Below, piece by piece: positions 9,104 through 44,075 of a DNA stretch of 64,000 nucleotides. The notes beneath the pieces are model-generated. The model did not search any database and was not told where the DNA came from. It worked only from the letters and a program-made list of their open reading frames with translations. Position numbers and translations under genes: made by a program. Within the stretch, counting starts at the first letter, position 1; every line of letters begins with the position of its first letter. The DNA comes from an uncultured Candidatus Saccharibacteria bacterium. Lineage in GTDB: Bacteria; Patescibacteriota; Minisyncoccia; Phycocordibacterales; WO2-35-19. Location: positions 11,448 to 75,447 of the forward strand of contig CAZVUY010000004.1 of the NCBI GenBank assembly GCA_964630525.1. The letters are read 5' to 3'.

Positions 9104-9112
9104 TATCAAAAT

Positions 9113-9828: not shown

Positions 9829-9908
9829 ATGATTAGGTTGAAAGTGAAAAATTAAAAGTGTAAAGTTATTACACTGTTCGCTCCAAGTATAACTCTAAGA
9901 TACTAAAA

Positions 9909-10373
9909 ATGCAAGAGGAGAAAATAGAAGAGGAATACGTGGTTTTGGATGAGGCGGGGGAGGTAGAGAAAGCCAATCTGAAGGCTAAAGTAGAGGGTTT
10001 TTTAGAAAGCCGGTTGTTCGTAGCGACTGTTTTGGTGCTCGTATCCCTTATCGCTTTTTTCTTGGGGAGGGTGTCGGTTTCTAAGGTTGGGAAGGTCCCG
10101 GTCAGAGTGATAAATAGTAGCACGGCTGCTTCGATCAGCGGAGGAGTGGTCAATACTGGGGCGAACCTCCAGGTCGATGAGTCAGATGGTGCTATGCCGG
10201 CTGATTCGACCAGCGAAATAGTGGTCGGCTCTAAAAACGGCAACAAATATCACTATCCTTGGTGTCCTGGCGCCAAACAGATCGCCGATAAAAATTTAAT
10301 CAAGTTCAATTCCATTGCAGAAGCGAAATCTAAAGGTTATACTCCTGCTAGCAATTGCAAAGGTCTAAAATAA
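9909..10373 (+). CDS. Membrane-anchored protein with C-terminal Ada-like Cys-rich metal-binding domain
   Basis: TM segment (LFVATVLVLVSLIAFFL). C-terminal KYHYPWCPGAKQIADKNLIKFNSIAEAKSKGYTPASNCKG fits the Ada N-terminal Zn-domain pattern C..N..F.S..EA..G..PC..C. Confidence 0.4.
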   Translation: MQEEKIEEEYVVLDEAGEVEKANLKAKVEGFLESRLFVATVLVLVSLIAFFLGRVSVSKVGKVPVRVINSSTAASISGGVVNTGANLQVDESDGAMPADSTSEIVVGSKNGNKYHYPWCPGAKQIADKNLIKFNSIAEAKSKGYTPASNCKGLK

Positions 10374-11656
10374 AAATGTCTAAGTCTTATTATAAAACGT
10401 CCAACGATTTTCTCATCTCCCTCAAGTTGGGATTTTTTTTGGCACTGCGCCAAGTCAAAAGGTCAAACAAGGCGACTACTGGCTTGATTATTTTTGTGAT
10501 GACCCTCACTTTTTTAAACTTGGTGGTAGTAAGAGGGGTTTTGGTCGGACTGATCGAGGGTTCGGTTCAGGTCTATCGCAATTTTTCGACCGGAGAAATT
10601 TTTATTTCCAAGCTGCCCAAAAAAAGCTACATAGAAAATAGTCCTTATATATTGGAGACGGTGAAAACCCTGCCCTGGGTTCAATCTTTCTCAGCGCGTT
10701 ATCTAGAGTCTGGCAATATTGAAGCTGATTATAAAACCAAGATTCGCCTGACAGATGCTTCCAATAGTGCTGGAGGAGTGATCGCCGGCATCAATCCAGA
10801 GGCTGAAAATGCGACCACCAATCTTTCCGCGAAAATAGTTGAAGGCCAGTTTCTAACCTCAGAAGACACCGAATACATTTTACTTGGTTCTAGTTTGTTG
10901 AAAAAATATGTGCCGGTCGACTCGGCCAGCTTCAGTTTTTTGGAAAATGTCGAGCCGGGTACTAAAGTGAGGGTCACGGTGGGTGGCAATACCAAAGAAT
11001 TTACAGTGAAAGGGGTGATCCAAAGCAAGGCCGATGAGGTCGATTTTCGAGCCTATATCTTGGATACAACCTTGCGCAACATGATTGGTCGCACCGACTA
11101 CAATGTCGATGAAGTGGCTATCAGGTTGAAGCCGGGAGTCGATCCGGTGTTGGTGAAAGAGGCGCTCCTCAAGTCAGGGGCGGGGGAGACTGCGAGAGTA
11201 CAAACAGCGGACGACGCGCTCCCTAAGTTTGTGATCGATATCAAGAATACTTTTGCCATTTTGGGTAATGTTGTCGGCTCAATTGGTTTGGTGGTAGCTT
11301 CGATCACTATCTTTATTGTGATTTTCGTCAATGCGATCACGCGCCGCAAATTTATCGGTATTTTGAAAGGGATTGGTATCAGTTCTCAGGCGATCGAGAT
11401 CGCTTATGTTTTCCAATCTCTTTTTTATGCCATCTTGGGTATTGGTATCGGACTCCTCTTTCTTTATGGTTTCTTGGTCCCGTTTATTGCCGCCAACCCG
11501 ATCAAGTTTCCGTTTAGCGACGGTATTTTGGTAGCTGAGGTACCAGCCACTTTCTTCCGGGTTTTCTTGTTGTCTGTCGCCACTTTAGTGGCTGGCTATG
11601 TGCCAGCAAGGATTGTGGTAAAGAAAAACACGCTGGACTCAATATTGGGGAGATAG
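10355..11656 (+). CDS. ABC transporter permease (MacB/FtsX-like, large periplasmic loop)
   Basis: 433 aa with TM1, a ~230-aa periplasmic domain and three C-terminal TMs (FtsX-like). Co-operonic with the ATPase and the HlyD adaptor. Confidence 0.8.
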   Translation: MQRSKIKMSKSYYKTSNDFLISLKLGFFLALRQVKRSNKATTGLIIFVMTLTFLNLVVVRGVLVGLIEGSVQVYRNFSTGEIFISKLPKKSYIENSPYILETVKTLPWVQSFSARYLESGNIEADYKTKIRLTDASNSAGGVIAGINPEAENATTNLSAKIVEGQFLTSEDTEYILLGSSLLKKYVPVDSASFSFLENVEPGTKVRVTVGGNTKEFTVKGVIQSKADEVDFRAYILDTTLRNMIGRTDYNVDEVAIRLKPGVDPVLVKEALLKSGAGETARVQTADDALPKFVIDIKNTFAILGNVVGSIGLVVASITIFIVIFVNAITRRKFIGILKGIGISSQAIEIAYVFQSLFYAILGIGIGLLFLYGFLVPFIAANPIKFPFSDGILVAEVPATFFRVFLLSVATLVAGYVPARIVVKKNTLDSILGR

Positions 11657-15682: not shown

Positions 15683-16735
15683 ATGGATAAGGAGATTTTT
15701 GTGAACAACAATAGCAAGCTCGTCACGATTTTCGGTGCTTTGGTGCCGACGTTCTTCACGACCAAAGGTGGTGTCTCCATTTCGGAGGTTGCTCGCCTGC
15801 AAGCTGAAGCCAAGCAGCAGAACGATACGTTCTGGGCCAGGCTGACCGATGCAACCCGCGGTGTGTTTCGCAAGGTTGTTTCGTTCGTGGGGGCCGGTTC
15901 TTCGGTGCCTCAGACTGTCGCTGGCCCGACCATTTCGGTTGGGGAAATCGGCGGCTACGGCGAGGTGGCGGCGCGCAACGCGTCGACGGCGGTGTTTATG
16001 CACGGTGTCAAGCTCTTCAAGAGTTTGCAGGAGAGGCTTGAGGTGATGGATTTGCGGCTTTTTGTCGTAGAGAAGTTGCCCGAAGCTCCTCCTAGCCCCG
16101 AGCGTCCGCAAGAACCCTCAGAGCCCACACGGGCAAAGAGTGGTACGGTCTGTGACACCCCGGTGTTCATGATGCTCGGCAACATCGACGAGATGATTGC
16201 TGGCCTCAAGCCGGAGGTGCTCGCGCGGTTCGACTTCGCCTTCTGGAAGAGGGCGAATGAGCTCAATGCTCGCGCGGCGGTGATCGGCAAGCTGCTCTCG
16301 GAGCAGGGTTCGTTCTTCCGTGAGGTGATCAAGCCTCTACCTTCGGGTGGTGAGCAGGTCACCCAGGCTGGGGTAGTGATATTCCGGTACGAGAAGGCTT
16401 ACTCGCCCGACGAGCTCGTCGACTTCGTTCGCATTCGCGAGACCCTCCAGGCTGAGTACAACGATTTGCAGAAGCAGCTCAATGGGCTGAAGAAGCAGAT
16501 CAAGGACGCCGTCCGGGCTTACAACCTGGAACAGGAGCGTCAGTACCAGGCCGCGTATGGTGAGTACAGACTCGCATACGCCTCCTATCAGGCTGCCGTT
16601 AAGGAGCTCTTGGTTAATCACCAAGACGCTCTGAAGCGGCACGCCCAGGAGATGGAGCGGATTCGCTCTTCTGCCGAAACGTTGCGACAGGAGGCGCTGG
16701 CTGAAATGGCCACCCTCCGCGTGCGCACGGAGTAG
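15683..16735 (+). CDS. Hypothetical protein with C-terminal coiled coil (island gene A). Probable true start is GTG 15704, which follows AAGGAG
   Basis: Long ORF in a GC-rich segment with protein-like composition. The C-terminal ~100 aa are Q/A/E/R/Y-rich heptads. It is followed by tandem hairpins at 16836-16880. Confidence 0.5.
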   Translation: MDKEIFVNNNSKLVTIFGALVPTFFTTKGGVSISEVARLQAEAKQQNDTFWARLTDATRGVFRKVVSFVGAGSSVPQTVAGPTISVGEIGGYGEVAARNASTAVFMHGVKLFKSLQERLEVMDLRLFVVEKLPEAPPSPERPQEPSEPTRAKSGTVCDTPVFMMLGNIDEMIAGLKPEVLARFDFAFWKRANELNARAAVIGKLLSEQGSFFREVIKPLPSGGEQVTQAGVVIFRYEKAYSPDELVDFVRIRETLQAEYNDLQKQLNGLKKQIKDAVRAYNLEQERQYQAAYGEYRLAYASYQAAVKELLVNHQDALKRHAQEMERIRSSAETLRQEALAEMATLRVRTE

Positions 16736-33696: not shown

Positions 33697-33712
33697 CCTT
33701 TGGTTCTATAAT
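33683..33712 (+). promoter_or_regulatory. Consensus sigma70-type promoter (TTGACA-N18-TATAAT) facing a 200-bp GC-rich spacer
   Basis: ttgaca 33683-33688, tataat 33707-33712. Confidence 0.55.
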
Positions 33713-33719
33713 AAACCTA

Positions 33720-33891
33720 GAAAGTTCAGGCTTGCTGAAGCCGCTCAAATTGTCCGTGCGCCTCCTCCACCCACGGATCTCCAACTGAGCGGTTCGCAGC
33801 TGCCCCCGAGATTGCAGGCGTTCTCCCTGGTCACACAACCACTCCTTACACCAGGGTAACATGAACGCCTCTCTCGGGGGTGTTTTCTTTT
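33720..33891 (+). ncRNA. Candidate ~170-nt structured sRNA of unknown family
   Basis: Bounded by the promoter above and an intrinsic terminator: CCCCCGAGA..AGGCGTTC..CCCTGGT(loop)ACCAGGG..GAACGCCT..TCTCGGGGG, then TGTTTTCTTTT. The 5' domain holds a second nested hairpin (CCGCTCA..CCGTG..CACGG..TGAGCGG). No protein-like ORF. Confidence 0.35.
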
Positions 33892-33909
33892 ATAAATTTT
33901 TAGGGTTGA

Positions 33910-35538
33910 TTAAGAATATTTTGGCAATTCGATCGTGAAGGTGGTGCCTTTGCCCAGACCATCGGAATCAACCTTGATATCTCCTTGGTGCGCCTCAACC
34001 ATCTTCTTGGCGATGTAGAGGCCAAGACCGGTACCGATGACGTTGGTTTTATTGGCATCTTTGGTGCGCGAGAATTTGGCAAAAAGCTTGCCCATTTCTT
34101 GAGGATCGATACCAACTCCGGTGTCTTTGATGGCCACCTTTACTTTATTACCCTCAGTGAAGACCGCGATCGATATGTCACCTTTCACGGTGTATTTAAT
34201 GGAATTGTCGATCAGATTGCTGATTGCCTGTTTGATTTTGTTACGGTCGGCATTGACCTCTTGTTTTGCACTTTTGATGTTGACCTGAAGCTCTAATCCA
34301 GCATTTTGTATGTTGGGCTTTATTTCATTTGCTACCTCGTTTACCAGAGCACCGATATCAAAAATCGATTTTTCATAAACCATCCTCCCCTGTTCAATTC
34401 GAGAAATATTAAGGAAATCATTGACAATATTGATGAGGTTTTGGCACGATTTCATAACGATCTCTACTGAGCTTGCCGCCTTGGGTGGCAAGACTCCAAA
34501 ATCCCCCTCAAGCAACATCGAGGAGTAGCCTTTAATGGCGGTGAGCGGTGCTCGGATCTGGTGTGTCGCCAGGGAGAGGAATTCTGATTTGAGTTGGTCG
34601 AGCTCCTTGAGCTTATCGTTGGCTAATTGGAGGTCTTTGGCCAACTTCTCAATCTTTTCTCTCTGTTCGACTTCTCTAAAAACACTTTTAACAATAAGTA
34701 TACCAAGTGTAACAACCAGTATAAATATTCCGCTTCTGAAAATCACTAACTCTAGATTGTTTTTTGCGACTATAACCTCAAACAGACTAACTATTGATAA
34801 TACAAAAGTAAGCGTGCTTGTTGCCAAAACCTTAATTTTAAGAAGATTTTGTTTCGATATTGCGTAAAATGTAAGAATAACGAATGGGAAAAAGAATACC
34901 GGTGCTAGCCCAACGTATCTTGATTTGTCCAATAATGCTGGCAGAATAAAATTGAATATAATGATAAACGAGAAAGTGATAAAAGTACCCAAAGCCACTA
35001 GTTTGTAAGGTTTTCTTTGTCCGCTCTGAACACGAATGGCTTTTCTAATAACTATAAATATTCCACTGACAACAAGGCTTAGTATAATTAACCCAAACAA
35101 AACTATCGCTGGTCCGTTGTTTACCTCCAGTATTTTCCCTGTGTCAGAGGCGGCTTTGATACTACTGAATATGAGAGGAGTGAACGCTACTAAAGAACTT
35201 ACTGTCACTAGGGGTAATAGTAGATATTTATAGGATTTAGGAAAAATTATCAAGTCATTAGGAAAAACATAAAATAATCTAAAGAAAGAAAATGCGTGCC
35301 AAATTGCAAAGAATATAGTTAATTTTAGTAGCCAGAATCCTAAAGTTAAATTTGTGGCTTGATATACCAAGTAATTGGTTACGCTGTAGAGCACTGTAAG
35401 TATTGAGAAGAAAAGAAATGATTGGTTGGTAACACTCTTTGTATTATTAAAATAAACGGTAAAACCAAGGGTGATAATGGCCGATGTTGTTATTGCTACT
35501 GCGAGCAGGTCTAGATTTGTAATTTCATTTATACTCAT
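33910..35538 (-). CDS. Sensor histidine kinase with 7-TM-like N-terminal domain (orphan, no adjacent response regulator)
   Basis: About 7 N-terminal TMs, a coiled-coil linker, HisKA H-box (LSLATHQIRAPLTAIKGY) and HATPase_c (NLIDNSIKYT, GTGLGLYIAKKMVE). Confidence 0.85.
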   Translation of the reverse strand: MSINEITNLDLLAVAITTSAIITLGFTVYFNNTKSVTNQSFLFFSILTVLYSVTNYLVYQATNLTLGFWLLKLTIFFAIWHAFSFFRLFYVFPNDLIIFPKSYKYLLLPLVTVSSLVAFTPLIFSSIKAASDTGKILEVNNGPAIVLFGLIILSLVVSGIFIVIRKAIRVQSGQRKPYKLVALGTFITFSFIIIFNFILPALLDKSRYVGLAPVFFFPFVILTFYAISKQNLLKIKVLATSTLTFVLSIVSLFEVIVAKNNLELVIFRSGIFILVVTLGILIVKSVFREVEQREKIEKLAKDLQLANDKLKELDQLKSEFLSLATHQIRAPLTAIKGYSSMLLEGDFGVLPPKAASSVEIVMKSCQNLINIVNDFLNISRIEQGRMVYEKSIFDIGALVNEVANEIKPNIQNAGLELQVNIKSAKQEVNADRNKIKQAISNLIDNSIKYTVKGDISIAVFTEGNKVKVAIKDTGVGIDPQEMGKLFAKFSRTKDANKTNVIGTGLGLYIAKKMVEAHQGDIKVDSDGLGKGTTFTIELPKYS

Positions 35539-36596
35539 ACCTTTTTAATTTTGGGAGGTTGTTTTTGTGAGCGAGCGGTTACTTTGTCAGCATAACCAAT
35601 TCTGAATACGAAACTCACAACATCTTTTTTTATATTGAAAATTTCTCTAATTATACTATATGTTTTTTTTATTTCATGAATGTGCTTTTCTTTGAAGATA
35701 ATTTTATCATTATGGATAATTTTGTTTGCCAAGAATACTATACCTGTAATTGGTTGTATATATAAATTATGTTTGGTGGCTATTAACCAAATTTTCTGCA
35801 TTATTCTTCCCACCTCAATAAATTTTATCGGCTCATATTTCTCAATGGTAATAATTCCGATACCTCCACCATGGCCGTATATTTTAGCGTTTGTTTTTGA
35901 TACTAAATTAGAGAACCCAAAAATATTCAGAAATCTAACGATGGGCCATACTTTGATTATTCTAAAGATGTATTCTACTATGGCCGGTAATTCTAAGGTT
36001 TTTATGTATAGTCCATGAGTGAACTGACTATTCTCCTGTTCTTTCCAGTTTATTTCAGCAAAAAACGATTGATGGATCAACTTGTTTTCTAGGGCAATTT
36101 TTTCCATTATACTTACAGCTTTCGCAAGAGCGGTTCTTTTAGTTCTACTTTCAGTTATAAGAATTCTGATTCCCGAATCATTTTGATTTACGGATAGGAT
36201 TTCAGTTTTAGCTAACTGATCAATCTTTTTATCGTAATAAATCTTTCGGTTTGTATGCCTGCCGGTTATATAACTGAAAAGTTTGCTGTTGGGATTTTTT
36301 TTTGTTTTTATAAAAGATATGATGGCGACTAAATCTTTTTCTTTAGCCTTATTTAGTACAAGATCTATTTTAGCCTCATACCCATAATGGCTTGAGGCTA
36401 TACAAATATTTTCTATAAGAGCTCCGTGGGCTATATAAGAACCAGTTTGCTCAAAATTCAGCACCGGATTATCTTTGTCTGGTATGTTGTATAAAAAAAG
36501 TTTATTCGATTTTATTTCAAATCTCCATGGTTGTGAATTACCGCCAGAGGGGGCTTGGATACCATAATAGATTATATCTTCTATTAACTTATTCAT
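35535..36596 (-). CDS. Tandem nitroreductase-fold oxidoreductase (SagB/McbC-like FMN-dehydrogenase candidate)
   Basis: The N-terminus YGIQAPSGGNSQPWRF is the classic nitroreductase FMN motif. At 353 aa it is consistent with two fused nitroreductase-like halves. Very AT-rich. Confidence 0.55.
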   Translation of the reverse strand: MNKLIEDIIYYGIQAPSGGNSQPWRFEIKSNKLFLYNIPDKDNPVLNFEQTGSYIAHGALIENICIASSHYGYEAKIDLVLNKAKEKDLVAIISFIKTKKNPNSKLFSYITGRHTNRKIYYDKKIDQLAKTEILSVNQNDSGIRILITESRTKRTALAKAVSIMEKIALENKLIHQSFFAEINWKEQENSQFTHGLYIKTLELPAIVEYIFRIIKVWPIVRFLNIFGFSNLVSKTNAKIYGHGGGIGIITIEKYEPIKFIEVGRIMQKIWLIATKHNLYIQPITGIVFLANKIIHNDKIIFKEKHIHEIKKTYSIIREIFNIKKDVVSFVFRIGYADKVTARSQKQPPKIKKV

Positions 36597-36598
36597 TC

Positions 36599-38182
36599 CT
36601 AAATTTCTTCTAATCTCATAATTTCTATTATTTTTTCTACATCTTTGTTTAGAGGTCTGTCGATATTAACAAAAGAAGACACCTTCCTAATCTTTTTTAC
36701 TACATTTTGAGAATGTGTCGAGCAATTATTCAACCCCCTAAATTCCAAAGCTTGCGCGCTCGAGATTGTTAGTATAGAAACCAGTCTTTCTAGATTCGCC
36801 ACAGATTCCTTTAGGTCTTGTGCTGCGTGTGCTGCTAAGCTGTTTACGTCCTGATTATCTCCTTCTGTGGGGATCATATACGCTTGTTGTGATTGGGCCA
36901 ATTTCCTATTTTGTACCGTAAGTGAAGCAGATAAAATGTGCAGAGGTCTAAATCCATTATAAATTTCAGAATGTTCAATTAGATTTGCTGGAAGACCAAA
37001 ATTTTTTCTCGGGTGATAAAGGTTACTTAATATTGCGTGCAACCAGGTTGAAGCCTGAGAGACGTCCATTTTTAAAAGATCACACGCTTCAGTAACATAA
37101 TAGCCCATAAAGTTTGCTCCGTGACATATTTTCATTGAACTAGGATCTATCACGGGGTTATCATTTATCGAATTTATCTCATCTTCAATCCACTTTTCTG
37201 CTGTTTGTAGGTTCTCTTTAAATACACCAAACCCTTGTGGTACTGACCTAAGAGAATAATAATCTTGAAGATTATTATCTATATTGTTGGACCCGTTTGT
37301 TTTGAAGTTTTTTAAGCTTTTTATTCTCAAATCAGAAAGATTTCTAATCAATCGACTTCCTTTCCATAATTTTCTAATAATATTATTAACTTCAATTTCC
37401 CCACTATGATTTTTTAATTTGTGTACCAATGGATCGTATGCGCTATCGATTACACGGAGTGACTCAAGTGCCATTGATATTGCTGACAGCATTTGATCAA
37501 ATATTCTTTTTAGGTCATACAATGAAATTGCTGCGACCGATGTCATAAAGGATGTTCCATTTATAAGCGCCAAACCCTCACGGGTTTCTAGTTGTAATTT
37601 CTCAAGCCCAACATTTTTCATAGCAATTGCAGATTCAATTTTTCGATTTCCATACAATACCTCTCCTTTTCCTATGAGGGCACTTGCAATACTTGATAAA
37701 GGTATCAAATCACCACTAGCACCAATTGACCCATATTTTCGAATAACCGGATGTATTTTATTGTTTATAAAATCTAAAAGAGAATCAACTACTATTGGTC
37801 TAACACCAGAATGACCAAGTGCCAAACAGTGGGATCTCAACAACATAGTTGCTCTTGAGATCTCCTCGCCCATTTCTTCTCCGAGCCCACAATTATGGGA
37901 AATAACGAGATTTAGTTGGCGATTTTTTAACGACTCAGAATACTCTTTTTCATCACTGTCTAAGTTTTTATCCAATATATTAACCTGGCTGCCAAACTGT
38001 GTGTTAAGTCCATAAACAGGCGTTCTTGTGTCAGCTGAATTTATAAGTATCTGATGAGAAGCCTTCATTTTTGCGATAGATTGTTCGGATAGTCTCACTT
38101 TTGAATTTTCTCTAGCCACCGCTTTGATTGCTGTTAAATCCAATTTTCTTCCTACACCTATAGTTATCATTTTCGTTTTCAT
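36599..38182 (-). CDS. MIO-dependent aromatic amino acid ammonia-lyase/aminomutase (HAL/PAL/TAM family)
   Basis: GSIGASGDLIPLS contains the Ala-Ser-Gly triad that forms the MIO cofactor. Length and conserved blocks match the histidine/phenylalanine ammonia-lyase family. Confidence 0.85.
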   Translation of the reverse strand: MKTKMITIGVGRKLDLTAIKAVARENSKVRLSEQSIAKMKASHQILINSADTRTPVYGLNTQFGSQVNILDKNLDSDEKEYSESLKNRQLNLVISHNCGLGEEMGEEISRATMLLRSHCLALGHSGVRPIVVDSLLDFINNKIHPVIRKYGSIGASGDLIPLSSIASALIGKGEVLYGNRKIESAIAMKNVGLEKLQLETREGLALINGTSFMTSVAAISLYDLKRIFDQMLSAISMALESLRVIDSAYDPLVHKLKNHSGEIEVNNIIRKLWKGSRLIRNLSDLRIKSLKNFKTNGSNNIDNNLQDYYSLRSVPQGFGVFKENLQTAEKWIEDEINSINDNPVIDPSSMKICHGANFMGYYVTEACDLLKMDVSQASTWLHAILSNLYHPRKNFGLPANLIEHSEIYNGFRPLHILSASLTVQNRKLAQSQQAYMIPTEGDNQDVNSLAAHAAQDLKESVANLERLVSILTISSAQALEFRGLNNCSTHSQNVVKKIRKVSSFVNIDRPLNKDVEKIIEIMRLEEI

Positions 38183-39624
38183 TTGTTATCAGATAATATT
38201 ATTTTAGGTTTTTTACCATTGATGCTTACTAATTTAGTTTCCGTTGGCTCAACAAGATTACTTTCATTATATTTTAGAAGTTTGATTACTGGTCGAGCTT
38301 TTTCTCCAATGGCTGAATATAGTTTGCTAAACTCTATGTTCTTTTCAACTAACTCATTTAAAATACGATCGGTGATTTTGGTAAGTATATTGGTAGATGG
38401 TTCTACTCCCTTGGCGAGTTCTAGTGAGATGTGAAGTTTTTGTACCATGTTATTTTTGGTATTTTTGTTATACGCACTAAAATTTCCACTCAATAATTTG
38501 TAGACACTTTTATTTTCTGTGGCCGCCCGAATTGTTTCAGGATATATATTTATTGCATAAAAAGTTACAGCTATATCCGCTCTACCACTTACTATAACGA
38601 ATGGTAGATTCCAGCCAGTATATTCTGAAAGAGATATTTTGTGATTTGTGTCAGCGAGATTTAGTTTTGATAAAATCTCCGATTTTTTATATAAAATCCC
38701 AGTATCGTGTATGTTATAACGTATTAAAGGAGAAAAAGTTGGAGCAGTTAAGATCAACTCCTCGTTTATTGTTTCAAAGTATATATATTCTGGGTGGTAT
38801 TGGAATATGGCTGGGATATTTTTTACTGTACCAAACAAATCTTCGCGAAGTTGATTATTATCAGCCACTCTTTTTCTTAAATAGATAGTAAGTGGTGTTT
38901 CGTGCCCTAGTATACCCGCATCGGCTGAACCGTAAATACTTATTAAATGATGGGAGGATTTCAAGCCAAATTCTTTTACTGCGCAGTCTCTCCATTCCTC
39001 AGTAAACTTATCTCCAGCAGTAATTATGAATTTTCTTTTATTTAAGATAGTTATTTTTTTCTTTTTACACTCATTAATTATATCCATAACAAAAGGTGGG
39101 TATCCTGCCAATATCACGGTATTGAAGTTTGGGGCCACTTCTCTTAGGGTGTTTAAAATATCATTCATTTCTACCCCCGGTGTAACGGTAGTCAGGTTGT
39201 ACCCTCTTCTTGACAGGTGGCGACATGAAGCAAGAGTATAATTACCAGCAACCCAAACACCCATGGCGAAACATACTATTACTAGAACACTCTCTTTTTT
39301 TGTTATTTCAAAAACATTCTTAAATATGTATTCATGAATTTGACCACCAATGATCTCTTGTTCATCACTTCTGGACCAGAAAGTGGGTTTACCAGACGAA
39401 CCAGAGCTTGCGTATATCATGGGAGGAAACTTTTTATTGGGAAATAGGTCAATAAAATTATTTTTATTAAAATAAGATTTTTTATCGGCAATCGGTAGTT
39501 GCTTAAATTCTTCGATTGAGGTTATTCTGTCTTTTTTAAAATTAAGGCTATTTACAAATTGCTTATAACACTTTATCTCGGACATAGCTTTATTTGACAA
39601 ACTTACGACATCTAAATTTTTCAT
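38179..39624 (-). CDS. PaaK-like adenylate-forming enzyme (phenylacetate-CoA ligase / F390 synthetase family)
   Basis: P-loop-like YASSGSSGKPTFW at the position of the PaaK SSGTTGKPT motif. The overall 480-aa layout matches the PaaK/CapK family. Confidence 0.65.
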   Translation of the reverse strand: MKNLDVVSLSNKAMSEIKCYKQFVNSLNFKKDRITSIEEFKQLPIADKKSYFNKNNFIDLFPNKKFPPMIYASSGSSGKPTFWSRSDEQEIIGGQIHEYIFKNVFEITKKESVLVIVCFAMGVWVAGNYTLASCRHLSRRGYNLTTVTPGVEMNDILNTLREVAPNFNTVILAGYPPFVMDIINECKKKKITILNKRKFIITAGDKFTEEWRDCAVKEFGLKSSHHLISIYGSADAGILGHETPLTIYLRKRVADNNQLREDLFGTVKNIPAIFQYHPEYIYFETINEELILTAPTFSPLIRYNIHDTGILYKKSEILSKLNLADTNHKISLSEYTGWNLPFVIVSGRADIAVTFYAINIYPETIRAATENKSVYKLLSGNFSAYNKNTKNNMVQKLHISLELAKGVEPSTNILTKITDRILNELVEKNIEFSKLYSAIGEKARPVIKLLKYNESNLVEPTETKLVSINGKKPKIILSDNK

Positions 39625-39638
39625 TGGATTTATTGGTA

Positions 39639-40763
39639 TTAGAAATTTTTTAAAAAAAACTTTAAATTTTTTTGTCTAGCCTTTTTATTTTGAAGAGAAT
39701 TATAGTCTAATGATATCTGCTTCTCTAAGTTTACAATGTATCTTCCAGAGAGTACTTTTTCTTTGTTTGCCATTTTACGAAGTACATATGCAATAGCCGA
39801 TCCCGCCATTGATGCAGTAGCGCCTAACTGAGGAACGGCGTTGATTGTTTTTCCAATTTTTAAAATAGAATCCCTCATACTTATAGGTAAATAGCTAGGA
39901 TTAACTATTTTGGTAGCAAGGGAAAGCCACTCCTTATAATCCATTTTACTAAAATCCTGATCCTCTATTTTATCTATCAAACCATGGAATAATTTCCTGT
40001 TTGGTTCAAGGTCGTATCTTTCTATATCTAGCACCAAACTGTCGCCATTATCAGTTGCCATAACTATTGGGATTTTCCTTGATCTGGCTATTAGGCGACA
40101 CTTTATTTTTAGTGCAATATCGTCCATTTCATCAATTAAGACATCTATCGCTGGTTTGTTACAAATAAATTTTTCTAGGTTAATTATATTTAGTCCCCTT
40201 TCCCATAATTCTACTTTGGCGTAAGGGTCTAGGTCGTATATGTTTCTAGCTGCAACTAATGTTTTTGGTGATCCGATATCTGAAATCTTTGCTTCAATTC
40301 GGTTTAAATTTGTAATATCTATAGTGTCAAAATCTGCTATTCTTATGTATTTAGGACCCCCACTTTGTATTAGGGTTGATATTATTTTTGAACCAACTGA
40401 TAACCCAGCTATACCGACTCTAAAATCCCTATATTTTTGTTGCTGAGTTTGGGTGATGATATCTCTATTTCTTGCTGTGCGAAGCTTAAAATAGATTTCT
40501 TCCGGAACAGTTTTGATTAGTGTATTTGACCACGGTAAATATATCCATTCTGGTTTTAATTTTCTCTGATTATTAACATATTGCTCTAATAGTTGCTTCG
40601 CTTTCTGATCCTGAGGTCGATATTTGGGATTTTCAATATAAAAAAGTTCTTTTATTGCTTTTAAGTAAATATCAACAAAAACCAGATCTCCTCTATTTTT
40701 TAGGAATTTTTTTAATGTTGACTCATTCTTTATGATCTTTGGTTTTTGGAACACCCTTTTCAT
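39639..40763 (-). CDS. ThiF/MoeB/E1-like adenylyltransferase family protein
   Basis: Rossmann GxGxxG (RVGIAGLSVGSKIISTLIQSGG), an E1-like spacing of acidic residues (ATDNGD), and extra N- and C-terminal regions. Confidence 0.65.
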   Translation of the reverse strand: MKRVFQKPKIIKNESTLKKFLKNRGDLVFVDIYLKAIKELFYIENPKYRPQDQKAKQLLEQYVNNQRKLKPEWIYLPWSNTLIKTVPEEIYFKLRTARNRDIITQTQQQKYRDFRVGIAGLSVGSKIISTLIQSGGPKYIRIADFDTIDITNLNRIEAKISDIGSPKTLVAARNIYDLDPYAKVELWERGLNIINLEKFICNKPAIDVLIDEMDDIALKIKCRLIARSRKIPIVMATDNGDSLVLDIERYDLEPNRKLFHGLIDKIEDQDFSKMDYKEWLSLATKIVNPSYLPISMRDSILKIGKTINAVPQLGATASMAGSAIAYVLRKMANKEKVLSGRYIVNLEKQISLDYNSLQNKKARQKNLKFFLKNF

Positions 40764-40842
40764 CTGTTCTGGCGGATCTATTCCTACACTTACTGATCTG
40801 GCTATTCTACAATAAATTCTTAAAAATTACTATCAAAGATTA

Positions 40843-42669
40843 TTACTCAAAATCTTGCTTTTGTTTTTGGTAAGCTAGGGCGTAGCGACCGCCAAGGTTT
40901 AAAAGTTCGGCATGTTTACCCTTCTCCACTACTTCCCCTTCATGCAAGACAATGATCTCGTCAGCTCGTTTGATGGTGGCAAAGTTGTGGGAAATCAAGA
41001 CAGCCGAAATGTCGTCGGGCAAATTTTCGATTTCATTGAAAATAATATTGGCTGATTCGGCATCGATCGAGGCAGTTGGTTCGTCCAGAATCAAAAACCT
41101 CTTTCCTTTATAAAAAGCGCGGGCAATCGCCAGCTTTTGGCGCTGACCTTTTGATGGTTCGATCCCACCAAATTCTACACCGATCATATGGTTGTATTTC
41201 TGATCGAGTTCTTCAATGAAGTCTCCAATCGTACTTTTCTTGGCAGACTCTTTGACATCGTCCAACCTTATTTTCTCAGATATATTACCGACAGCGATCG
41301 ACTCTTTGACCGTAAAATTGTAAGTAGTGAAATCTTGAAGTAGGACACCCAACTCTTGCCACCATTTTGCTAAATCAAGCTGCTTTAGGTCGACCCCACC
41401 CACCGTGATTTTGCCTTTGACTGGATCGTGGATACGTAAAAGTAGGCGAACCAAGGTCGATTTGCCAGCGGCGTTGTTGCCGACCAAGCCGATTTTTTGG
41501 CCGGGCTCTATGACGAAGGACACATTTTTTAAAGCCCATTTTTGTTGCCCAGGATATTTGAAGTAGACATTTTCAAAGACCACTCTTGGTGCTTGGTGCA
41601 GATCAAGCTTTTTAGGATTTTTTGGGTATTTAAGAGCTGGACTTTCGTCGAGAATACTAAAAATGTCTGTTACGTAAAGGTTTCTTTCCAAGATACGGGC
41701 GGTGTTGGAGAGCATGCTAGAAGTCCAGCCGCTTACTCGGTTTAAAGTATCAAAGGCAAACACGACTGTACCGATAGCTACTAGACCAGCGATAGCATCA
41801 TTGATAATGATCGCTGTACCTACAAAAAGGCCTGCAGCTGCAAATATACTGGCCGAAATTTTCATTATTGTTTTCCAATGTTCGGCACTAAGTTGTTCTT
41901 TTGTAAAACCGCTCAAAATTTGTTTGATATCTGACAAAAATTTTTCTCCCGTTTGGTAAAGTTTGCTATCGATAACTGATATTTTTTGCATAAAAAATCT
42001 TCTCAGATCTATATATCTGCGTTGCTCAGTACTATTTTTGGCCCAGATAGCCCAAATTCGGCCTCCGTGTTTGATATCAATCCAAAAATTAGGTATAGAA
42101 GTGACAAAAACTAGTAGAAACACTCGCCAATCGATGGTGGCTGCCGCGATCGACCCCACCACGATACCGCAGAAAATTTCTAAATTTTGGATTTGAGCAT
42201 CGACCACGTTGATGAATGGGTAGATACCATTGTTGAAAGCGCGTTGCAGCCTGTCTTGGAATTTTGGATCTTCATATTGAGCAATATCAAAGGAGCCGCG
42301 CTTTCTGAGGGTGATGAGTTCGAATAGGTCTTGCATTTTCAAAAATAGGTTTCGGTCAATAAAGGAAACAACATTTCTAATGACGGTAGGGATGGCGGTA
42401 AGGATGGCAAACCAAATAAGGGCTGGGTAGGCCACTGACACATCAGAAGTTTCCACTCCTTCTATTATTTTATCTATCAAGGTGCCCAGTGCTTTGGCTG
42501 AGAAAATGGGTACGATACCCATAATAATTGTCAATACTAAGATTGATGAAAATAGCCATGGCAGATGCCTAAAAAGAATGGCAAAAATTCGGCCAGTATT
42601 TCTAAATAAGGCTTTGAAATTTTCTATGCTTTTCTGTTGTTTTGCTAGATTTTCAGTATTTTGACTCAT
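40843..42669 (-). CDS. ABC exporter, fused transmembrane and ATP-binding domains
   Basis: N-terminal 6-TM domain. C-terminal NBD with GNNAAGKST (Walker A), LSGGQRQ-like signature (SKGQRQKLAIARA) and LILDEPT (Walker B). Confidence 0.9.
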   Translation of the reverse strand: MSQNTENLAKQQKSIENFKALFRNTGRIFAILFRHLPWLFSSILVLTIIMGIVPIFSAKALGTLIDKIIEGVETSDVSVAYPALIWFAILTAIPTVIRNVVSFIDRNLFLKMQDLFELITLRKRGSFDIAQYEDPKFQDRLQRAFNNGIYPFINVVDAQIQNLEIFCGIVVGSIAAATIDWRVFLLVFVTSIPNFWIDIKHGGRIWAIWAKNSTEQRRYIDLRRFFMQKISVIDSKLYQTGEKFLSDIKQILSGFTKEQLSAEHWKTIMKISASIFAAAGLFVGTAIIINDAIAGLVAIGTVVFAFDTLNRVSGWTSSMLSNTARILERNLYVTDIFSILDESPALKYPKNPKKLDLHQAPRVVFENVYFKYPGQQKWALKNVSFVIEPGQKIGLVGNNAAGKSTLVRLLLRIHDPVKGKITVGGVDLKQLDLAKWWQELGVLLQDFTTYNFTVKESIAVGNISEKIRLDDVKESAKKSTIGDFIEELDQKYNHMIGVEFGGIEPSKGQRQKLAIARAFYKGKRFLILDEPTASIDAESANIIFNEIENLPDDISAVLISHNFATIKRADEIIVLHEGEVVEKGKHAELLNLGGRYALAYQKQKQDFE

Positions 42670-44075
42670 CCGAATATTTTACTCTTGTTTATATTGTCCC
42701 GCAATTTGCGGTGGAAGGAGAGAGCGAAGCGATGCGCCTCGGAGTTTGCGAGGAGGATTTGTTTTTCTAATTCCTTTATTTTCAATTTTAAATTTTTAAA
42801 TTTTTCGATATTCAATATTTGTTTTGGTCTATGTTTCTCATCTTTGGTTACCGCCACTATTTTTATATCTTCCAATCTTTCGACCTGTCCCGTTGATCCA
42901 AGGCGGACCTGTAAATTTTTTAATGTGCTTTCTGTAACATTGAGCTGAGCCACTCCCCCATCTACCACTATCAAGTCCGGAAAAGCCCATTCTGGGTGTT
43001 TGAACCTGCGCTCCAATATTTCACTCAGAGCTTTTGTATCGTTTGCATTTTTTTGACCTTTGATTTTGAACATTCGATATTTTGCTTTATTTGGCCCGCC
43101 ATTTTCAATGTTGACCATGACTCCGACCATGTTGCTGCCAGAAATATGAGCTACATCGTAAGCTTCGATAGAAAAAGCTGGAGACTGAGGACTGAAAGCT
43201 TGGAGGTCGGTTTCTATTAAAGCTACATCTTGAATGTGTTTTAAGGCAAACACTTTTTTCTTGATCTCGGCTGCTTTTTCAAATTCTCTTTTTTGGGCCA
43301 GCACTTTCATTTCTTTTTCTAAATCGCGAATCAATTTTTTCTTGTTGCCTTCAAAAAAAGTTTTGATGTGCTTGATCGTTTTCGCGTATTCTTGTTTACT
43401 GATCGCACCGATGCAGATGCCCGGACAGATGCCAAGTTGATAATTGAAGCATGGAAGACCCCTCTCCGCTCTGGGGGTACATTTATCTCTAAATGGGAAA
43501 ATTTTGCGAATAATTTTCAGAGCTTCTTTCAGATTATTTCCGTGGGGAAAAGGTCCAAAGGCTTCTGAAATTATTGAATTATCCGAGCCGTCTTCCTGAG
43601 AAAACCCTCGGGAGGAGCGACGGCGACGGACGGAGGAAATTTTTAGCAGAAAATTTCCGTGGTTTTCGATGGATGCGGCGACAGATAATTTAGTCATATC
43701 TCTTTCTCGCATCACCAAAACTCTTGGAAATTCTTCGTCAGTGATTACGACATAATTGAAGCTTTTTTGGTCTTTATCAGCGCTATTGTAAGGGGGCATC
43801 CATTTTTTTATCAACCTTGATTCTAAAATCAAAGCCTCCAATACCGAGTCGGTCTTTTCAAAATTCAAGTCGACTGCTTCTGCTACCATCTTGGCAATCA
43901 GGGGACTTCTTTTTTCGGCAATATTCGTACCAAAATAACTGCGCACTCTGTTTTTGAGCGAAGTAGCTTTGCCAATGTACAAAATCTCCTTCTTGGATCC
44001 GAGGAAGAGGTAAACTCCGGGGCCGTCTGGGAGTTTGGCAATTTTTGTTTTTAGGCTTTCTTGAGCTTTGGTCAT
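42666..44075 (-). CDS. uvrC: UvrC-like excinuclease subunit (GIY-YIG N-terminus), shortened, with internal low-complexity insertion
   Basis: GVYLFLGSKKEILYIGKATSLKNRVRSYF is the GIY-YIG motif. At 469 aa it is shorter than typical UvrC. An R/S-rich segment (SSVRRRRSSRGFSQEDGS) is encoded by DNA resembling the 45401/47053 repeat family. Confidence 0.7.
   Translation of the reverse strand: MTKAQESLKTKIAKLPDGPGVYLFLGSKKEILYIGKATSLKNRVRSYFGTNIAEKRSPLIAKMVAEAVDLNFEKTDSVLEALILESRLIKKWMPPYNSADKDQKSFNYVVITDEEFPRVLVMRERDMTKLSVAASIENHGNFLLKISSVRRRRSSRGFSQEDGSDNSIISEAFGPFPHGNNLKEALKIIRKIFPFRDKCTPRAERGLPCFNYQLGICPGICIGAISKQEYAKTIKHIKTFFEGNKKKLIRDLEKEMKVLAQKREFEKAAEIKKKVFALKHIQDVALIETDLQAFSPQSPAFSIEAYDVAHISGSNMVGVMVNIENGGPNKAKYRMFKIKGQKNANDTKALSEILERRFKHPEWAFPDLIVVDGGVAQLNVTESTLKNLQVRLGSTGQVERLEDIKIVAVTKDEKHRPKQILNIEKFKNLKLKIKELEKQILLANSEAHRFALSFHRKLRDNINKSKIFG

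What the first reader, a model, noticed from the sequence alone, without database searches (positions are those of the whole stretch)
35535..42669. AT-rich five-gene cluster: nitroreductase-fold + MIO lyase/aminomutase + PaaK-like ligase + ThiF/E1-like + ABC exporter
Five co-directional, tightly packed minus-strand genes have noticeably lower GC than the surrounding housekeeping genes. They are a tandem nitroreductase-fold protein (APSGGNSQPW motif), an MIO-type aromatic amino acid ammonia-lyase/aminomutase (ASG triad), a PaaK-like adenylating enzyme (SSGSSGKPT), a ThiF/E1-like adenylyltransferase (GxGxxG) and a fused TMD-NBD ABC exporter. A multi-TM sensor kinase with no partner response regulator sits directly upstream (33910-35538). 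This combination looks like a horizontally acquired pathway that converts an aromatic amino acid (deamination or 2,3-aminomutation), activates a carboxylate by adenylation (PaaK/E1), oxidises it (flavin enzyme) and exports the product. I see no YcaO, no LanB/C and no credible small precursor ORF, so a classical TOMM/lanthipeptide RiPP is unlikely. An E1-like plus nitroreductase pair without a recognisable precursor suggests an undescribed small-molecule or amino-acid-conjugate system. Secondary metabolism of this kind is rare in a reduced genome.
Basis: partly seen in the sequence, partly recalled or inferred. Interest (0 to 1): 0.8.

Follow-up and report, generated by a model that had tools for sequence, protein, structure and literature searches.

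The report
Oxazolone-type synthase cassette with sensor kinase
This tiny-genome (Patescibacteria) bacterium carries an inserted five-gene cassette, conserved in many relatives, that joins enzymes resembling the recently discovered oxazolone makers to their own membrane sensor kinase, which suggests a small-molecule signalling unit.

Summary
It covers ThiF, the PaaK-like ligase, the MIO enzyme, the nitroreductase-fold protein and the sensor half of the histidine kinase. It does not cover the ABC exporter.

A syntenic relative has ABC followed directly by the Pif1 helicase, so the inserted unit is ThiF to kinase (33910-40763). The ABC gene is a resident neighbour.

ThiF and the nitroreductase-fold protein match the two halves of the Rv1355c/TrzS family. 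These are the ATP-dependent cyclase and flavin desaturase that turn N-acyl amino acids into oxazolones. The usual N-acyltransferase is missing. A PaaK-fold ligase with no Pfam family always accompanies the pair.

Next to that ligase sits either a tyrosine-type MIO enzyme (not hutH) or, in other lineages, an amino-acid dehydrogenase.

About 120 related loci, nearly all from Patescibacteria or unlabelled metagenome contigs, show ligase-ThiF-nitroreductase followed by one specific 7TM kinase family. Some also have a receiver gene and a receiver-PilB pilus ATPase.

Best reading: a new variant of the oxazolone / N-acyl-dehydroamino-acid pathway, coupled to a dedicated sensor. The chemistry and the ligand-receptor link are inferred, not shown.

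The parts
40764..40842 (-). 79-nt spacer upstream of ThiF, a likely promoter region. It marks the upstream edge of the AT-rich block and of the indel.
   Evidence: This is the only gap over 14 nt in the cassette. A promoter-like TTGATA-16-TATTGT lies at 40836-40809, scoring 9/12, which is weak. GC steps from 0.32 to 0.44 at about 40900.
39639..40763 (-). ThiF/E1-like adenylating cyclase (374 aa), homologous to the N-terminal half of Rv1355c/TrzS-type oxazolone synthetases.
   Evidence: NCBIfam PRK07877 (Rv1355c family) positions 26-346, E 1.7e-85, 288 bits; the next family scores E 4e-18. It is 36% identical over 278 aa to a Rhodococcus Rv1355c-family fusion. The best PDB sequence hit is the ct6A dehydratase TcdA. 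ATP-site residues R95, R98, N99, D144, D146, N152, N154, R155, K167 and D214 are conserved in 74 homologues and in the fusion.
38179..39624 (-). PaaK-fold (ANL superfamily) adenylating ligase (481 aa) with no curated family. Proposed amide-forming N-acyl amino acid synthetase.
   Evidence: No Pfam hit; PaaK TIGR02155 scores only 23 bits against a cut-off of 646. The AlphaFold model has pLDDT 88.4. Foldseek hits are PaaK1/2 at E 1e-20, then BT_0428, AjiA1, NatL2, ClxA and HCL. Motifs SSGSSGKPT, YGSADAG, RYNxHDxG, GRxD and C-terminal GKK are invariant or nearly so. It was present in 34 of 44 kinase-seeded loci together with ThiF and the nitroreductase-fold gene.
36599..38182 (-). MIO-dependent aromatic amino acid ammonia-lyase or aminomutase (527 aa), tyrosine-type signature. 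An accessory module of the cassette.
   Evidence: PF00221 451 bits; below every NCBIfam equivalog cut-off. It has ASG, catalytic Tyr57, a Ser-His switch, and NQDV where true hutH has QEDH. It shares a roughly 20-aa insert with SgTAM that hutH lacks. The best PDB hit is the SgTAM tyrosine aminomutase at 240 bits. MIO was present in 25 of 44 ligase-seeded and 3 of 44 kinase-seeded loci.
35535..36596 (-). Acg-like nitroreductase-superfamily FMN enzyme (353 aa), homologous to the flavin-dependent desaturase half of Rv1355c/TrzS.
   Evidence: NCBIfam PRK14851 206 bits, PRK07877 positions 376-713 169 bits, Acg family 127 bits. E 7e-18 to the FDO half of the Rhodococcus fusion. The only PDB sequence hit is Acg 2YMV. 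APSxxNxQPW, R113, R117, W184 and R332 are conserved in 89 homologues and in the fusion.
34669..35538 (-). Sensor half of the histidine kinase (codons 1-290): multi-helix membrane domain with a short beta-hairpin loop. This family is specifically linked to the cassette.
   Evidence: PF16927 HisKA_7TM, E 2e-7. The AlphaFold model has pLDDT 89.5, eight to nine helices, and a hairpin at 124-141 next to the conserved NGP motif. It is 25-49% identical in all cassette kinases, often more conserved than the kinase core. GC3 is 0.30, like the enzymes. The family has 392 representatives at E<=1e-10 among 1.84 billion.
33910..34668 (-). Kinase core of the same protein (HisKA with His326, plus HATPase_c).
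   Evidence: PF00512 and PF02518. Foldseek matches HK853, WalK and GacS cores. GC3 is 0.54. The whole kinase gene is absent from the ABC-Pif1 junction in syntenic relative L172.

Best explanation
The unit is a five-gene operon, ThiF - ligase - MIO - nitroreductase-fold - 7TM histidine kinase (33910-40763, minus strand). It is inserted between the resident ABC and Pif1 genes of a Paceibacteria (Patescibacteria) genome.

Proposed mechanism:
1. The MIO enzyme deaminates tyrosine to p-coumarate. This is inferred from active-site signatures, and an aminomutase role is not excluded.
2. The PaaK-fold ligase adenylates that acid and joins it to the amino group of an amino acid, giving an N-acyl amino acid. 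It would thus replace the acyl-CoA-dependent N-acyltransferase of known pathways. This is inferred.
3. The ThiF-like enzyme adenylates the alpha-carboxylate of the N-acyl amino acid, and the amide oxygen closes an oxazol-5-one ring. This rests on homology to TrzS, TyzB and OxzB, whose reaction has been shown for those enzymes.
4. The Acg-like flavoenzyme desaturates C-alpha to C-beta, giving an unsaturated oxazolone or, after ring opening, an N-acyl dehydroamino acid. This also rests on homology.
5. The co-transcribed 7TM kinase is the dedicated sensor for this lipophilic product or a derivative. In relatives it signals to a single-domain receiver and a receiver-PilB type IV pilus ATPase. This step rests on gene linkage only.
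For: Enzyme homology.
- ThiF and the nitroreductase-fold protein match the two halves of the Rv1355c/TrzS family far better than any other family, and they keep its conserved residues.
- TrzS, TyzBC and OxzB are shown to cyclise and desaturate N-acyl amino acids (PMC12856293, PMC10404671, PMC12596934).

The missing amide-forming step.
- No acyltransferase is in the window or in any of about 160 related loci.
- The PaaK-fold ligase is a constant partner.
- Its structural neighbours include NatL2, AjiA1 and ClxA. From my own knowledge these form ester or amide bonds without CoA.

Source of the acid.
- A gene for an amino-acid-deaminating enzyme lies within the same cassette as the ligase, and directly adjacent to it in many arrangements. 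It is either an MIO enzyme (two distinct lineages) or an ELFV dehydrogenase.
- Ligase clades follow that partner.
- The MIO has a Tyr-type, non-hutH signature.

Kinase linkage.
- 38 of 44 ligase-seeded non-cyanobacterial loci have the kinase.
- 40 of 44 kinase-sensor-seeded metagenome loci have cassette genes directly upstream on the same strand, and 34 have all three.
- Sensor similarity correlates with nitroreductase similarity (rho 0.49, p 6e-6) and ThiF similarity (rho 0.31). The kinase core correlates with none.
- The sensor shares the enzymes' low GC3.
- Receiver genes and receiver-PilB/PilC recur next to the cassette.

Insertion. The cassette is an indel in syntenic relatives.
Against: - No biochemical data exist for any member.
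- The ligase's second substrate (amine, CoA or other) cannot be read from sequence.
- The flavoenzyme's homologues use O2, whereas many Patescibacteria live in low-oxygen groundwater.
- TAL versus TAM is unresolved for the MIO enzyme, and NCBIfam scores are highest for HAL models.
- MIO is absent from most kinase-seeded cassettes, so the acyl donor differs between lineages.
- Linkage to a kinase fits regulation by an external cue as well as product sensing.
- No response regulator or pilus gene lies in this 64-kb window.
- The sensor-enzyme correlation is not corrected for shared ancestry.
- A sensor/core GC3 contrast is a family-wide trait (mean -0.11), so it is not evidence for co-transfer by itself.
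- Related loci were found by pattern scans, which bias sampling.
Confidence: 0.55

Rival explanations
1. The enzymes make an oxazolone or N-acyl-dehydroamino-acid metabolite used for something other than self-signalling. It could be an antibiotic against the host or competitors, a pigment, a membrane constituent, or a reactive acylating agent. The kinase merely senses an external cue, such as host contact or oxygen, and controls the operon or pili.
For: The enzymology evidence is the same as for the best explanation. N-acyl amino acids are reported as antibiotics, signals or membrane lipids, and the role of tyrazolones is unknown (PMC10404671). Tailoring genes vary between lineages, as in secondary metabolism: methyltransferases, an M19 dipeptidase, an M20 peptidase and a radical SAM enzyme.
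Against: A regulator that only controls expression would not be expected to keep one specific sensor family fixed to the cassette across about 120 loci. Nor would its sensor, but not its kinase core, be expected to co-vary with the nitroreductase-fold protein and ThiF. No DNA-binding regulator recurs in the neighbourhood; the recurring receivers are single-domain or fused to PilB.
Confidence: 0.27
2. The ligase and/or the electrophilic oxazolone product attach a tyrosine-derived group covalently to a protein, possibly the kinase's own sensor. This would resemble the way TAL plus a coumarate ligase load the photoactive yellow protein chromophore, and would create a ligand- or light-responsive receptor.
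For: The cassette combines a TAL-type MIO enzyme, an ANL ligase and a sensor protein. Tyrazolones and tryptazolones absorb at 360-400 nm and are readily opened by nucleophiles (PMC12856293). Lys236 is invariant in 37 sensors.
Against: MIO is absent from most cassettes. Many source samples are groundwater, where light sensing is pointless (contig names). No conserved Cys was seen in the sensor, and the only invariant Lys is Lys236. The ThiF/flavoenzyme homologues act on free small molecules (PMC12596934).
Confidence: 0.05
3. A RiPP-like or protein C-terminal modification system: an E1-like enzyme plus a dehydrogenase acting on a peptide, as in TOMM, microcin C7 (MccB) or pantocin (PaaA).
For: ThiF-like enzymes and nitroreductase-type dehydrogenases occur in such systems (PMC12596934). 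Weak PADLOC E1-E2 hits were found.
Against: There is no YcaO and no precursor. Gaps of 2, -4, 14 and 79 nt leave no room, and every short ORF is embedded in a long gene. No small ORF family of at least 70 aa recurred in the clustering of related loci; shorter ORFs were not clustered. ThiF scores 288 bits on the Rv1355c family against at most 65 bits on any other family, and its N-terminal region aligns to that family as well.
Confidence: 0.04
4. Ordinary catabolism or housekeeping: hutH for histidine use, PaaK for phenylacetate degradation, ThiF for thiamine or molybdopterin sulfur transfer, and a nitroreductase for detoxification, adjacent by chance.
For: The best NCBIfam scores of the MIO protein are to HAL models at 374 bits. 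JGI annotates ligase homologues as phenylacetate-CoA ligase.
Against: All scores are below the equivalog cut-offs: 364 against 539 for hutH, 23 against 646 for PaaK, and 48-59 against 152-275 for ThiF. The hutH QEDH motif is missing. There is no hutU/hutI, no paa genes and no ThiS/MoaD. The gene set is conserved as a block, with overlapping start and stop codons, in about 120 loci.
Confidence: 0.02

Closest known systems
TrzAS (Rv1356c-Rv1355c), TyzACB and OxzAB oxazolone pathways (Mycobacterium, Rhodococcus, Pseudoalteromonas)
   Same: A ThiF-like ATP-dependent cyclase plus an Acg-like flavin desaturase. The window proteins match the two halves of the Rv1355c family and keep its conserved residues. 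As in TyzB/TyzC, they are separate polypeptides.
   Different: There is no N-acyltransferase (TrzA/TyzA/OxzA). A PaaK-fold ligase takes its place. The acyl donor is probably a deaminated amino acid (MIO or ELFV dehydrogenase partner) rather than a fatty acyl-CoA. The cassette has an obligatory 7TM histidine kinase partner. It occurs in Patescibacteria, which is not among the three phyla reported for N-acyl tyrosine producers.
NasY + ThiF + nitroreductase (+ methyltransferase) clusters for N-acyl dehydrotyrosines (stieleriacines, thalassotalic and kyonggic acids; PMC12479983)
   Same: The ThiF and nitroreductase genes are in an operon with the amide-forming enzyme. Methyltransferase tailoring genes are also seen in several Patescibacterial cassettes. 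The end product may be the ring-opened dehydro acid rather than the oxazolone.
   Different: [quoted passage not shown] No sensor kinase is described for those clusters.
CoA-independent PaaK-like ligases NatL2, AjiA1 and ClxA of benzoxazole pathways
   Same: They have the same fold and are among the top structural matches. From my own knowledge, they adenylate an aromatic acid and pass it to a hydroxyl or amine rather than to CoA. This is the type of reaction proposed here.
   Different: Identity is only 12-16%. Their substrates are aminohydroxybenzoates. No ThiF, nitroreductase or kinase is in their context.
Autoinducer synthase-receptor cassettes: CqsA/CqsS, LqsA/LqsS/LqsR, agrBDCA
   Same: Biosynthetic genes are co-transcribed with a polytopic membrane histidine kinase that senses their lipophilic or peptide product. 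In agr, the synthase genes and the sensor half of the kinase co-vary. This comparison is an analogy from my own knowledge.
   Different: The enzyme families and sensor fold are unrelated. Ligand binding is untested here. The cognate regulator is not always adjacent.
SgTAM/CmdF-type tyrosine aminomutases and bacterial TALs
   Same: The MIO triad, the Ser-His selectivity switch, the NQDV motif and a shared insertion.
   Different: Identity is 31%. The score is below the TIGR03832 cut-off (298 against 501). Whether it is a lyase or a mutase is unknown. There is an extra 10-aa insert after the catalytic Tyr loop.

Membership tests
ThiF-FDO oxazolone synthetase (OxzB / TyzB+TyzC / TrzS = Rv1355c family) | ThiF-like domain of the Rv1355c/TrzS clade | tested here: met
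   PRK07877 N-terminal half, E 1.7e-85, 288 bits; other ThiF families score at most 65 bits. 36% identity over 278 aa to a Rhodococcus Rv1355c-family protein.
ThiF-FDO oxazolone synthetase (OxzB / TyzB+TyzC / TrzS = Rv1355c family) | Nitroreductase-superfamily (Acg-like) flavin-dependent oxidase fused to ThiF or encoded beside it | tested here: met
   PRK07877 C-terminal half 169 bits, PRK14851 206 bits, Acg family 127 bits. E 7e-18 to the fusion's FDO half. The only PDB hit is Acg 2YMV. The gene is in the same operon, and directly adjacent to ThiF in most relatives.
ThiF-FDO oxazolone synthetase (OxzB / TyzB+TyzC / TrzS = Rv1355c family) | Catalytic or cofactor residues: the ATP-site Asp equivalent to TrzS D217, and FMN-site residues | tested here: inconclusive
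   D214 in the DxxD motif and the RxxRN, DxD and NxNR motifs are conserved. APSxxNxQPW, R113, R117 and R332 are conserved and shared with a Rhodococcus fusion.
ThiF-FDO oxazolone synthetase (OxzB / TyzB+TyzC / TrzS = Rv1355c family) | Whole-protein score above the curated cut-off | tested here: not met
   The cut-off of 476 bits is set for the fused protein. The split halves score 288 and 169 bits, 457 in sum.
Known oxazolone / N-acyl dehydrotyrosine gene clusters | Adjacent N-acyl amino acid synthase or acyltransferase (OxzA/TyzA/TrzA/NasY) | tested here: not met
   No acyltransferase domain is found in the cassette genes. No recurring acyltransferase family appears in related loci. BLAST with two ThiF-adjacent candidate proteins (a Streptomyces GNAT and a Rhodococcus hypothetical protein) found nothing.
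Known oxazolone / N-acyl dehydrotyrosine gene clusters | Product is an oxazolone or N-acyl dehydroamino acid | not testable with these tools
   This needs expression and LC-MS with acid- and alcohol-free work-up (PMC12856293).
Phenylacetate-CoA ligase PaaK | ANL/PaaK fold with adenylation motifs | tested here: met
   Foldseek matches PaaK1/2 at E 1e-20, probability 1.0. Motifs are invariant in 30 homologues.
Phenylacetate-CoA ligase PaaK | Equivalog-level sequence score and paa catabolic context | tested here: not met
   TIGR02155 scores 23 bits against a cut-off of 646; there is no Pfam family. No paa genes are in the window or in related loci.
Histidine ammonia-lyase HutH | Score above cut-off, QEDH substrate motif, hutU/hutI neighbours | tested here: not met
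   364 bits against 539. The motif is NQDV instead of QEDH, and there is an extra insert absent from two hutH genes that lie in hut operons. No hutU or hutI is nearby.
MIO tyrosine ammonia-lyase / 2,3-aminomutase | ASG (or TSG) MIO triad, catalytic Tyr, His at the selectivity switch | tested here: met
   Present in alignments A4 and of 28 cassette MIOs. The best solved relative is SgTAM. The score is below the TIGR03832 cut-off (298 against 501), so it is not an equivalog.
RiPP systems with E1-like enzymes (TOMM, MccB, PaaA) | YcaO or other partner, and a precursor peptide gene | tested here: not met
   No YcaO or LanB/C domain. No free small ORF. No conserved small ORF of at least 70 aa in relatives.
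Synthase-receptor signalling cassette (Cqs/Lqs/agr type) | Biosynthetic genes co-transcribed with a polytopic sensor kinase specific to them | tested here: met
   There is a 4-nt overlap between the nitroreductase-fold gene and the kinase. Linkage holds in both directions: 38 of 44 and 40 of 44 loci. The sensor family is conserved.
Synthase-receptor signalling cassette (Cqs/Lqs/agr type) | The kinase binds the product, and a cognate response regulator exists | not testable with these tools
   A receiver gene lies immediately downstream of the kinase in about 11 related loci, and one flanks the far end of the cassette in about 13. Receiver-PilB lies downstream in about 10. None is in this window. 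Binding needs experiments.

The most novel reading that the evidence does not exclude
Patescibacteria (CPR bacteria) carry a self-contained chemical signalling cassette. A ligase, ThiF and flavoenzyme build an oxazolone or N-acyl-dehydroamino-acid signal from amino acids without CoA. A dedicated 7TM histidine kinase, whose sensor co-varies with the ThiF and nitroreductase enzymes, perceives it. The output goes through single-domain receivers and a receiver-PilB ATPase to type IV pili, that is, to attachment, motility or DNA uptake. This would give oxazolones their first physiological role. It would also be the first autoinducer-like system described in these reduced-genome episymbionts.
Probability: 0.3. 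Interest if true: 0.85.

Novelty: new variant of a known kind. Interest (0 to 1): 0.68.

Why it matters
ThiF-flavoenzyme oxazolone synthetases were found only in 2020-2025, and the role of their products is still unknown, including in M. tuberculosis.

This cassette would extend them to a fourth phylum with minimal metabolism. It shows a different, probably CoA-independent way to make the N-acyl amino acid substrate. It also ties the pathway to one specific sensor kinase family and, in some genomes, to pilus motor genes.

That linkage turns the question of what oxazolones are for into a concrete experiment: does the product switch the kinase? It also offers a rare handle on cell-cell or host signalling in uncultivated CPR bacteria.

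The ligase and the sensor domain lack any characterised close relative. The ligase has no curated family at all.

Tried and rejected
- Rfam scans of the window and of the HK-Pif1 spacer found only one tRNA.
- PADLOC gave only generic E1 and ATPase hits, so there is no sign of a defence system.
- Nostoc homologues of the ligase (33% identical) are stand-alone genes with uninformative neighbours.
- A domain-swap idea was weakened. The idea was a resident kinase core joined to an imported sensor, suggested by the GC3 break at codon 290. The same sensor/core contrast is family-wide. The whole kinase gene is also missing from the syntenic junction in L172. The kinase core of relative L170 is no closer (56%) than cassette kinases.
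- The first attempt to scan metagenomes with 37 sensors failed for lack of conserved stretches. A 12-sequence alignment worked.
- Foldseek of the full kinase model matched only the cytoplasmic core, so nothing was learned about the sensor fold.
- Cluster look-up gave no source names for the window proteins.
- Literature searches for Patescibacteria plus oxazolone, ThiF or nitroreductase, and for HisKA_7TM, returned nothing relevant.

Full report
**What is in the sequence**

Six co-directional minus-strand ORFs lie at 33910-35538, 35535-36596, 36599-38182, 38179-39624, 39639-40763 and 40843-42669. The gaps or overlaps between them are -4, 2, -4, 14 and 79 nt. The ABC gene also overlaps uvrC (42666-44075) by 4 nt.

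- an MIO enzyme (PF00221, 451 bits);
- a ThiF-family protein (PF00899);
- a nitroreductase-fold protein (APSGGNSQPW motif, Acg family);
- a fused TMD-NBD ABC exporter;
- a HisKA_7TM / HisKA / HATPase_c kinase.

The PaaK-like protein has no Pfam family and only a 23-bit match to PaaK. Its AlphaFold model (pLDDT 88.4) nevertheless matches PaaK1/PaaK2 at Foldseek E 1e-20. The next matches are BT_0428, AjiA1, NatL2, ClxA and 2-hydroxyisobutyryl-CoA ligase. Its adenylation motifs are invariant in 30 homologues.

RpoB is 84-90% identical to Zambryskibacteria/Paceibacterota proteins. The flanks hold aminoacyl-tRNA synthetases, cell-wall genes, RNA polymerase, primase and sigma factor.

**Composition and limits of the island**

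GC is 0.32-0.355 across 35-41 kb against about 0.43-0.45 elsewhere. GC3 is 0.27-0.29 for the four enzyme genes, against 0.47 +/- 0.065 (minimum 0.34) for the other ORFs.

The ABC gene (GC3 0.42) does not share this composition. The low-GC3 stretch continues into the first 290 codons of the kinase (0.30) and stops at the sensor/kinase-core boundary (0.54). This is the largest within-gene contrast in the window.

This contrast is partly a family trait. Over 58 related loci, mean GC3 is 0.373 for sensors, 0.388 for the enzymes, 0.413 for flanks and 0.460 for kinase cores. The window is simply more extreme: enzymes minus flanks is -0.16, against a family mean of -0.025 with sd 0.057.

Synteny settles the limits. 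The ABC protein has 73-87% identical orthologues in relatives, whereas the best homologue of the ligase among 5.8 billion proteins is 53% identical. In relative L172 the order is DnaJ - ABC (76%) - a 99-aa ORF - Pif1 (71%) - aaRS - aaRS - ScpA. This is collinear with the window but lacks ThiF, ligase, MIO, nitroreductase and kinase. In L170 the ABC gene abuts the aaRS genes. In L167-L169 the ABC gene has other neighbours.

The mobile or variable unit is therefore the five genes from ThiF to the kinase. The ABC exporter is a resident gene.

**Identity of the E1-like plus nitroreductase pair**

ThiF matches positions 26-346 of NCBIfam PRK07877 (Rv1355c family protein) at E 1.7e-85. The nitroreductase-fold protein matches positions 376-713 of the same model.

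A Rhodococcus plasmid Rv1355c-family fusion is 36% identical to ThiF over 278 aa. It aligns to the nitroreductase-fold protein at E 7e-18.

The only solved structure found by sequence for the nitroreductase-fold protein is Acg (2YMV). This is the same structure the TrzS authors found as nearest to their flavin domain. The best solved hit for ThiF is the ct6A dehydratase TcdA, another oxazolone-forming ThiF enzyme (PMC12856293; PMC12596934).

ATP-site and FMN-site residues are conserved across 74 and 89 homologues respectively, and are shared with the fusion.

Rv1355c is TrzS. It performs ATP-dependent cyclisation and O2-dependent desaturation of N-acyl tryptophan to a tryptazolone. TyzB/TyzC and OxzB do the same with N-acyl tyrosine. 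So the pair is a split member of a described, though very recent, enzyme class.

**What differs from the known pathways**

All described clusters supply the substrate through an acyl-CoA/ACP-dependent N-acyltransferase (TrzA, TyzA, OxzA, NasY). None is present here or in about 160 related loci. The PaaK-fold ligase is always there instead.

Next to it sits an enzyme that removes the amino group of an amino acid.
- In the window's lineage this is an MIO enzyme fused by overlapping codons to the ligase gene.
- In many other loci it is a second, only 30% identical MIO lineage (mostly with a TSG triad) upstream of ThiF.
- In about 11-13 MIO-less loci it is an ELFV (Leu/Phe/Val/Glu) dehydrogenase directly upstream of the ligase.

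Ligase sequence clusters follow this partner. At 45% identity no cluster mixes MIO-linked and ELFV-linked ligases, and both MIO lineages pair with the same ligase clade.

The MIO proteins have the catalytic Tyr, the ASG or TSG triad and a Ser-His switch. They carry NQDV where two hutH genes from hut operons have QEDH. They share a roughly 20-aa insertion with the tyrosine aminomutase SgTAM, their best solved relative. Every NCBIfam equivalog cut-off is missed.

I therefore read the enzyme as tyrosine-type (lyase or mutase), not hutH.

The simplest scheme has four steps. Tyrosine is deaminated to p-coumarate. The ligase joins the acid to an amino acid, by analogy with the CoA-independent PaaK-like ligases among its structural neighbours. 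ThiF closes the oxazolone ring. The flavoenzyme desaturates it. Only the last two steps rest on homology to enzymes with shown activity.

**The kinase belongs to the system**

Forty-four non-cyanobacterial genome loci were found with the ligase as seed. Of these, 40 carry ThiF, 36 the nitroreductase-fold gene, 25 MIO and 38 the kinase. The kinase is almost always the last gene on the same strand.

All these kinases share the N-terminal membrane domain. It is 25-49% identical to the window's and often better conserved than the catalytic half.

The reverse test used this sensor domain as seed in metagenome contigs. Of 44 loci with at least 4.5 kb upstream, 40 have cassette genes directly upstream, 34 have ligase, ThiF and nitroreductase together, and only 3 have MIO. 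MIO is thus an accessory gene, and the kinase is core.

Sensor similarity to the window correlates with nitroreductase similarity (rho 0.49, p 6e-6) and ThiF similarity (rho 0.31, p 0.01). Kinase-core similarity correlates with none. This test is not corrected for phylogeny.

The sensor family is modest in size, with 392 representatives at E<=1e-10 among 1.84 billion. The model shows eight to nine membrane helices and a beta-hairpin loop beside a conserved NGP motif. It has no match among solved structures beyond the kinase core.

A single-domain receiver gene lies right after the kinase in about 11 loci and at the other end of the cassette in about 13. A receiver-PilB ATPase, usually with PilC, follows the kinase in about 10. 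None of these is in the window.

**Interpretation**

The most economical reading is a small-molecule synthase coupled to its own sensor, comparable in layout to CqsA/CqsS, the Lqs system or agr.

The main rival keeps the same chemistry but makes the product an effector, with the kinase sensing something else. A covalent-ligand (PYP-like) idea, a RiPP system and plain catabolism are much less likely, for the reasons listed under the rival explanations.

Weak points are the unknown acceptor of the ligase, the oxygen requirement of the homologous desaturases, the TAL/TAM ambiguity, and the complete lack of experimental data.

**Novelty**

N-acyl tyrosine and oxazolone pathways are reported from Pseudomonadota, Actinomycetota and Planctomycetota. 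Full-text searches found nothing on Patescibacteria, on a ligase-based variant or on a kinase partner.

I rate this as a new variant of a known kind. The signalling reading is a well-defined and testable extension.

Noticed in passing
window 33697-33909: The spacer between the kinase and the Pif1 helicase is GC-rich and folds strongly as RNA (-81 kcal/mol, z = -4.8 against shuffles). It has no Rfam match and no similar sequence in any fetched locus. It could be a structured RNA or a long terminator or insulator at the edge of the indel.
   Followed up: partly
window 15683-16732 (+): A 350-aa ORF with GC 0.585 and GC3 0.73 in a roughly 44% GC window, with no Pfam family. This is a compositional outlier in the opposite direction from the cassette.
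   Followed up: no
L003, L006, L010, L011, L012, L086, L129, L148, L151, L152 (downstream of the kinase): A PilB/GspE ATPase, often with an N-terminal receiver domain, and usually PilC follow the cassette kinase, often after a stand-alone receiver gene. This hints that type IV pili are the output.
   Followed up: partly
L028, L029, L084, L098, L115, L135, L146, L150, L152, L161 (directly upstream of the ligase): A Glu/Leu/Phe/Val-type amino-acid dehydrogenase occupies the place of the MIO enzyme in MIO-less cassettes.
   Followed up: partly
L024:3936-4859, L031, L040, L041, L130, L134, L145, L147, L154, L159: A conserved protein of about 310 aa (motifs GSGGMEVERQ and FRHHL), with no Pfam family, sits immediately upstream of the kinase in at least 10 cassettes. 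It is possibly a divergent methyltransferase. A separate 245-aa class I methyltransferase occupies the same slot in other loci.
   Followed up: partly
L171:1905-4213 and L170:1455-6755: Close relatives (ABC 85% and 75% identical) carry other HisKA_7TM kinases near the same ABC gene, with different partners. One has a membrane protein, a SET-domain protein and a 55-aa ORF. The other has MarR, a PlsC-like acyltransferase and a 549-aa unknown protein. This kinase superfamily may pair with several alternative cassettes.
   Followed up: partly
L045-L081 (Nostoc and relatives), e.g. L063:7818-9422: Cyanobacterial homologues of the ligase (about 33% identical, no Pfam) are stand-alone genes without ThiF, nitroreductase or kinase. 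In the one locus examined (L063) the gene lies next to two Ser/Thr protein kinase genes.
   Followed up: partly
L021:9508-10446; L125:3417-6688: Single cassettes carry an M19 membrane dipeptidase, or an unannotated 416-aa ORF, an M20-peptidase-like ORF (judged from its N-terminal sequence only) and a small unidentified ORF. The M19 family includes dehydropeptidases, which fits a dehydro-peptide-like product.
   Followed up: no
L035 (MAG labelled Legionella), 7905-11022: A ligase homologue lies next to a PAL-like MIO enzyme (no Ser-His switch, QYNQN motif), without ThiF, nitroreductase or the kinase. It may be a simpler aryl-acryloyl conjugate pathway outside Patescibacteria.
   Followed up: no
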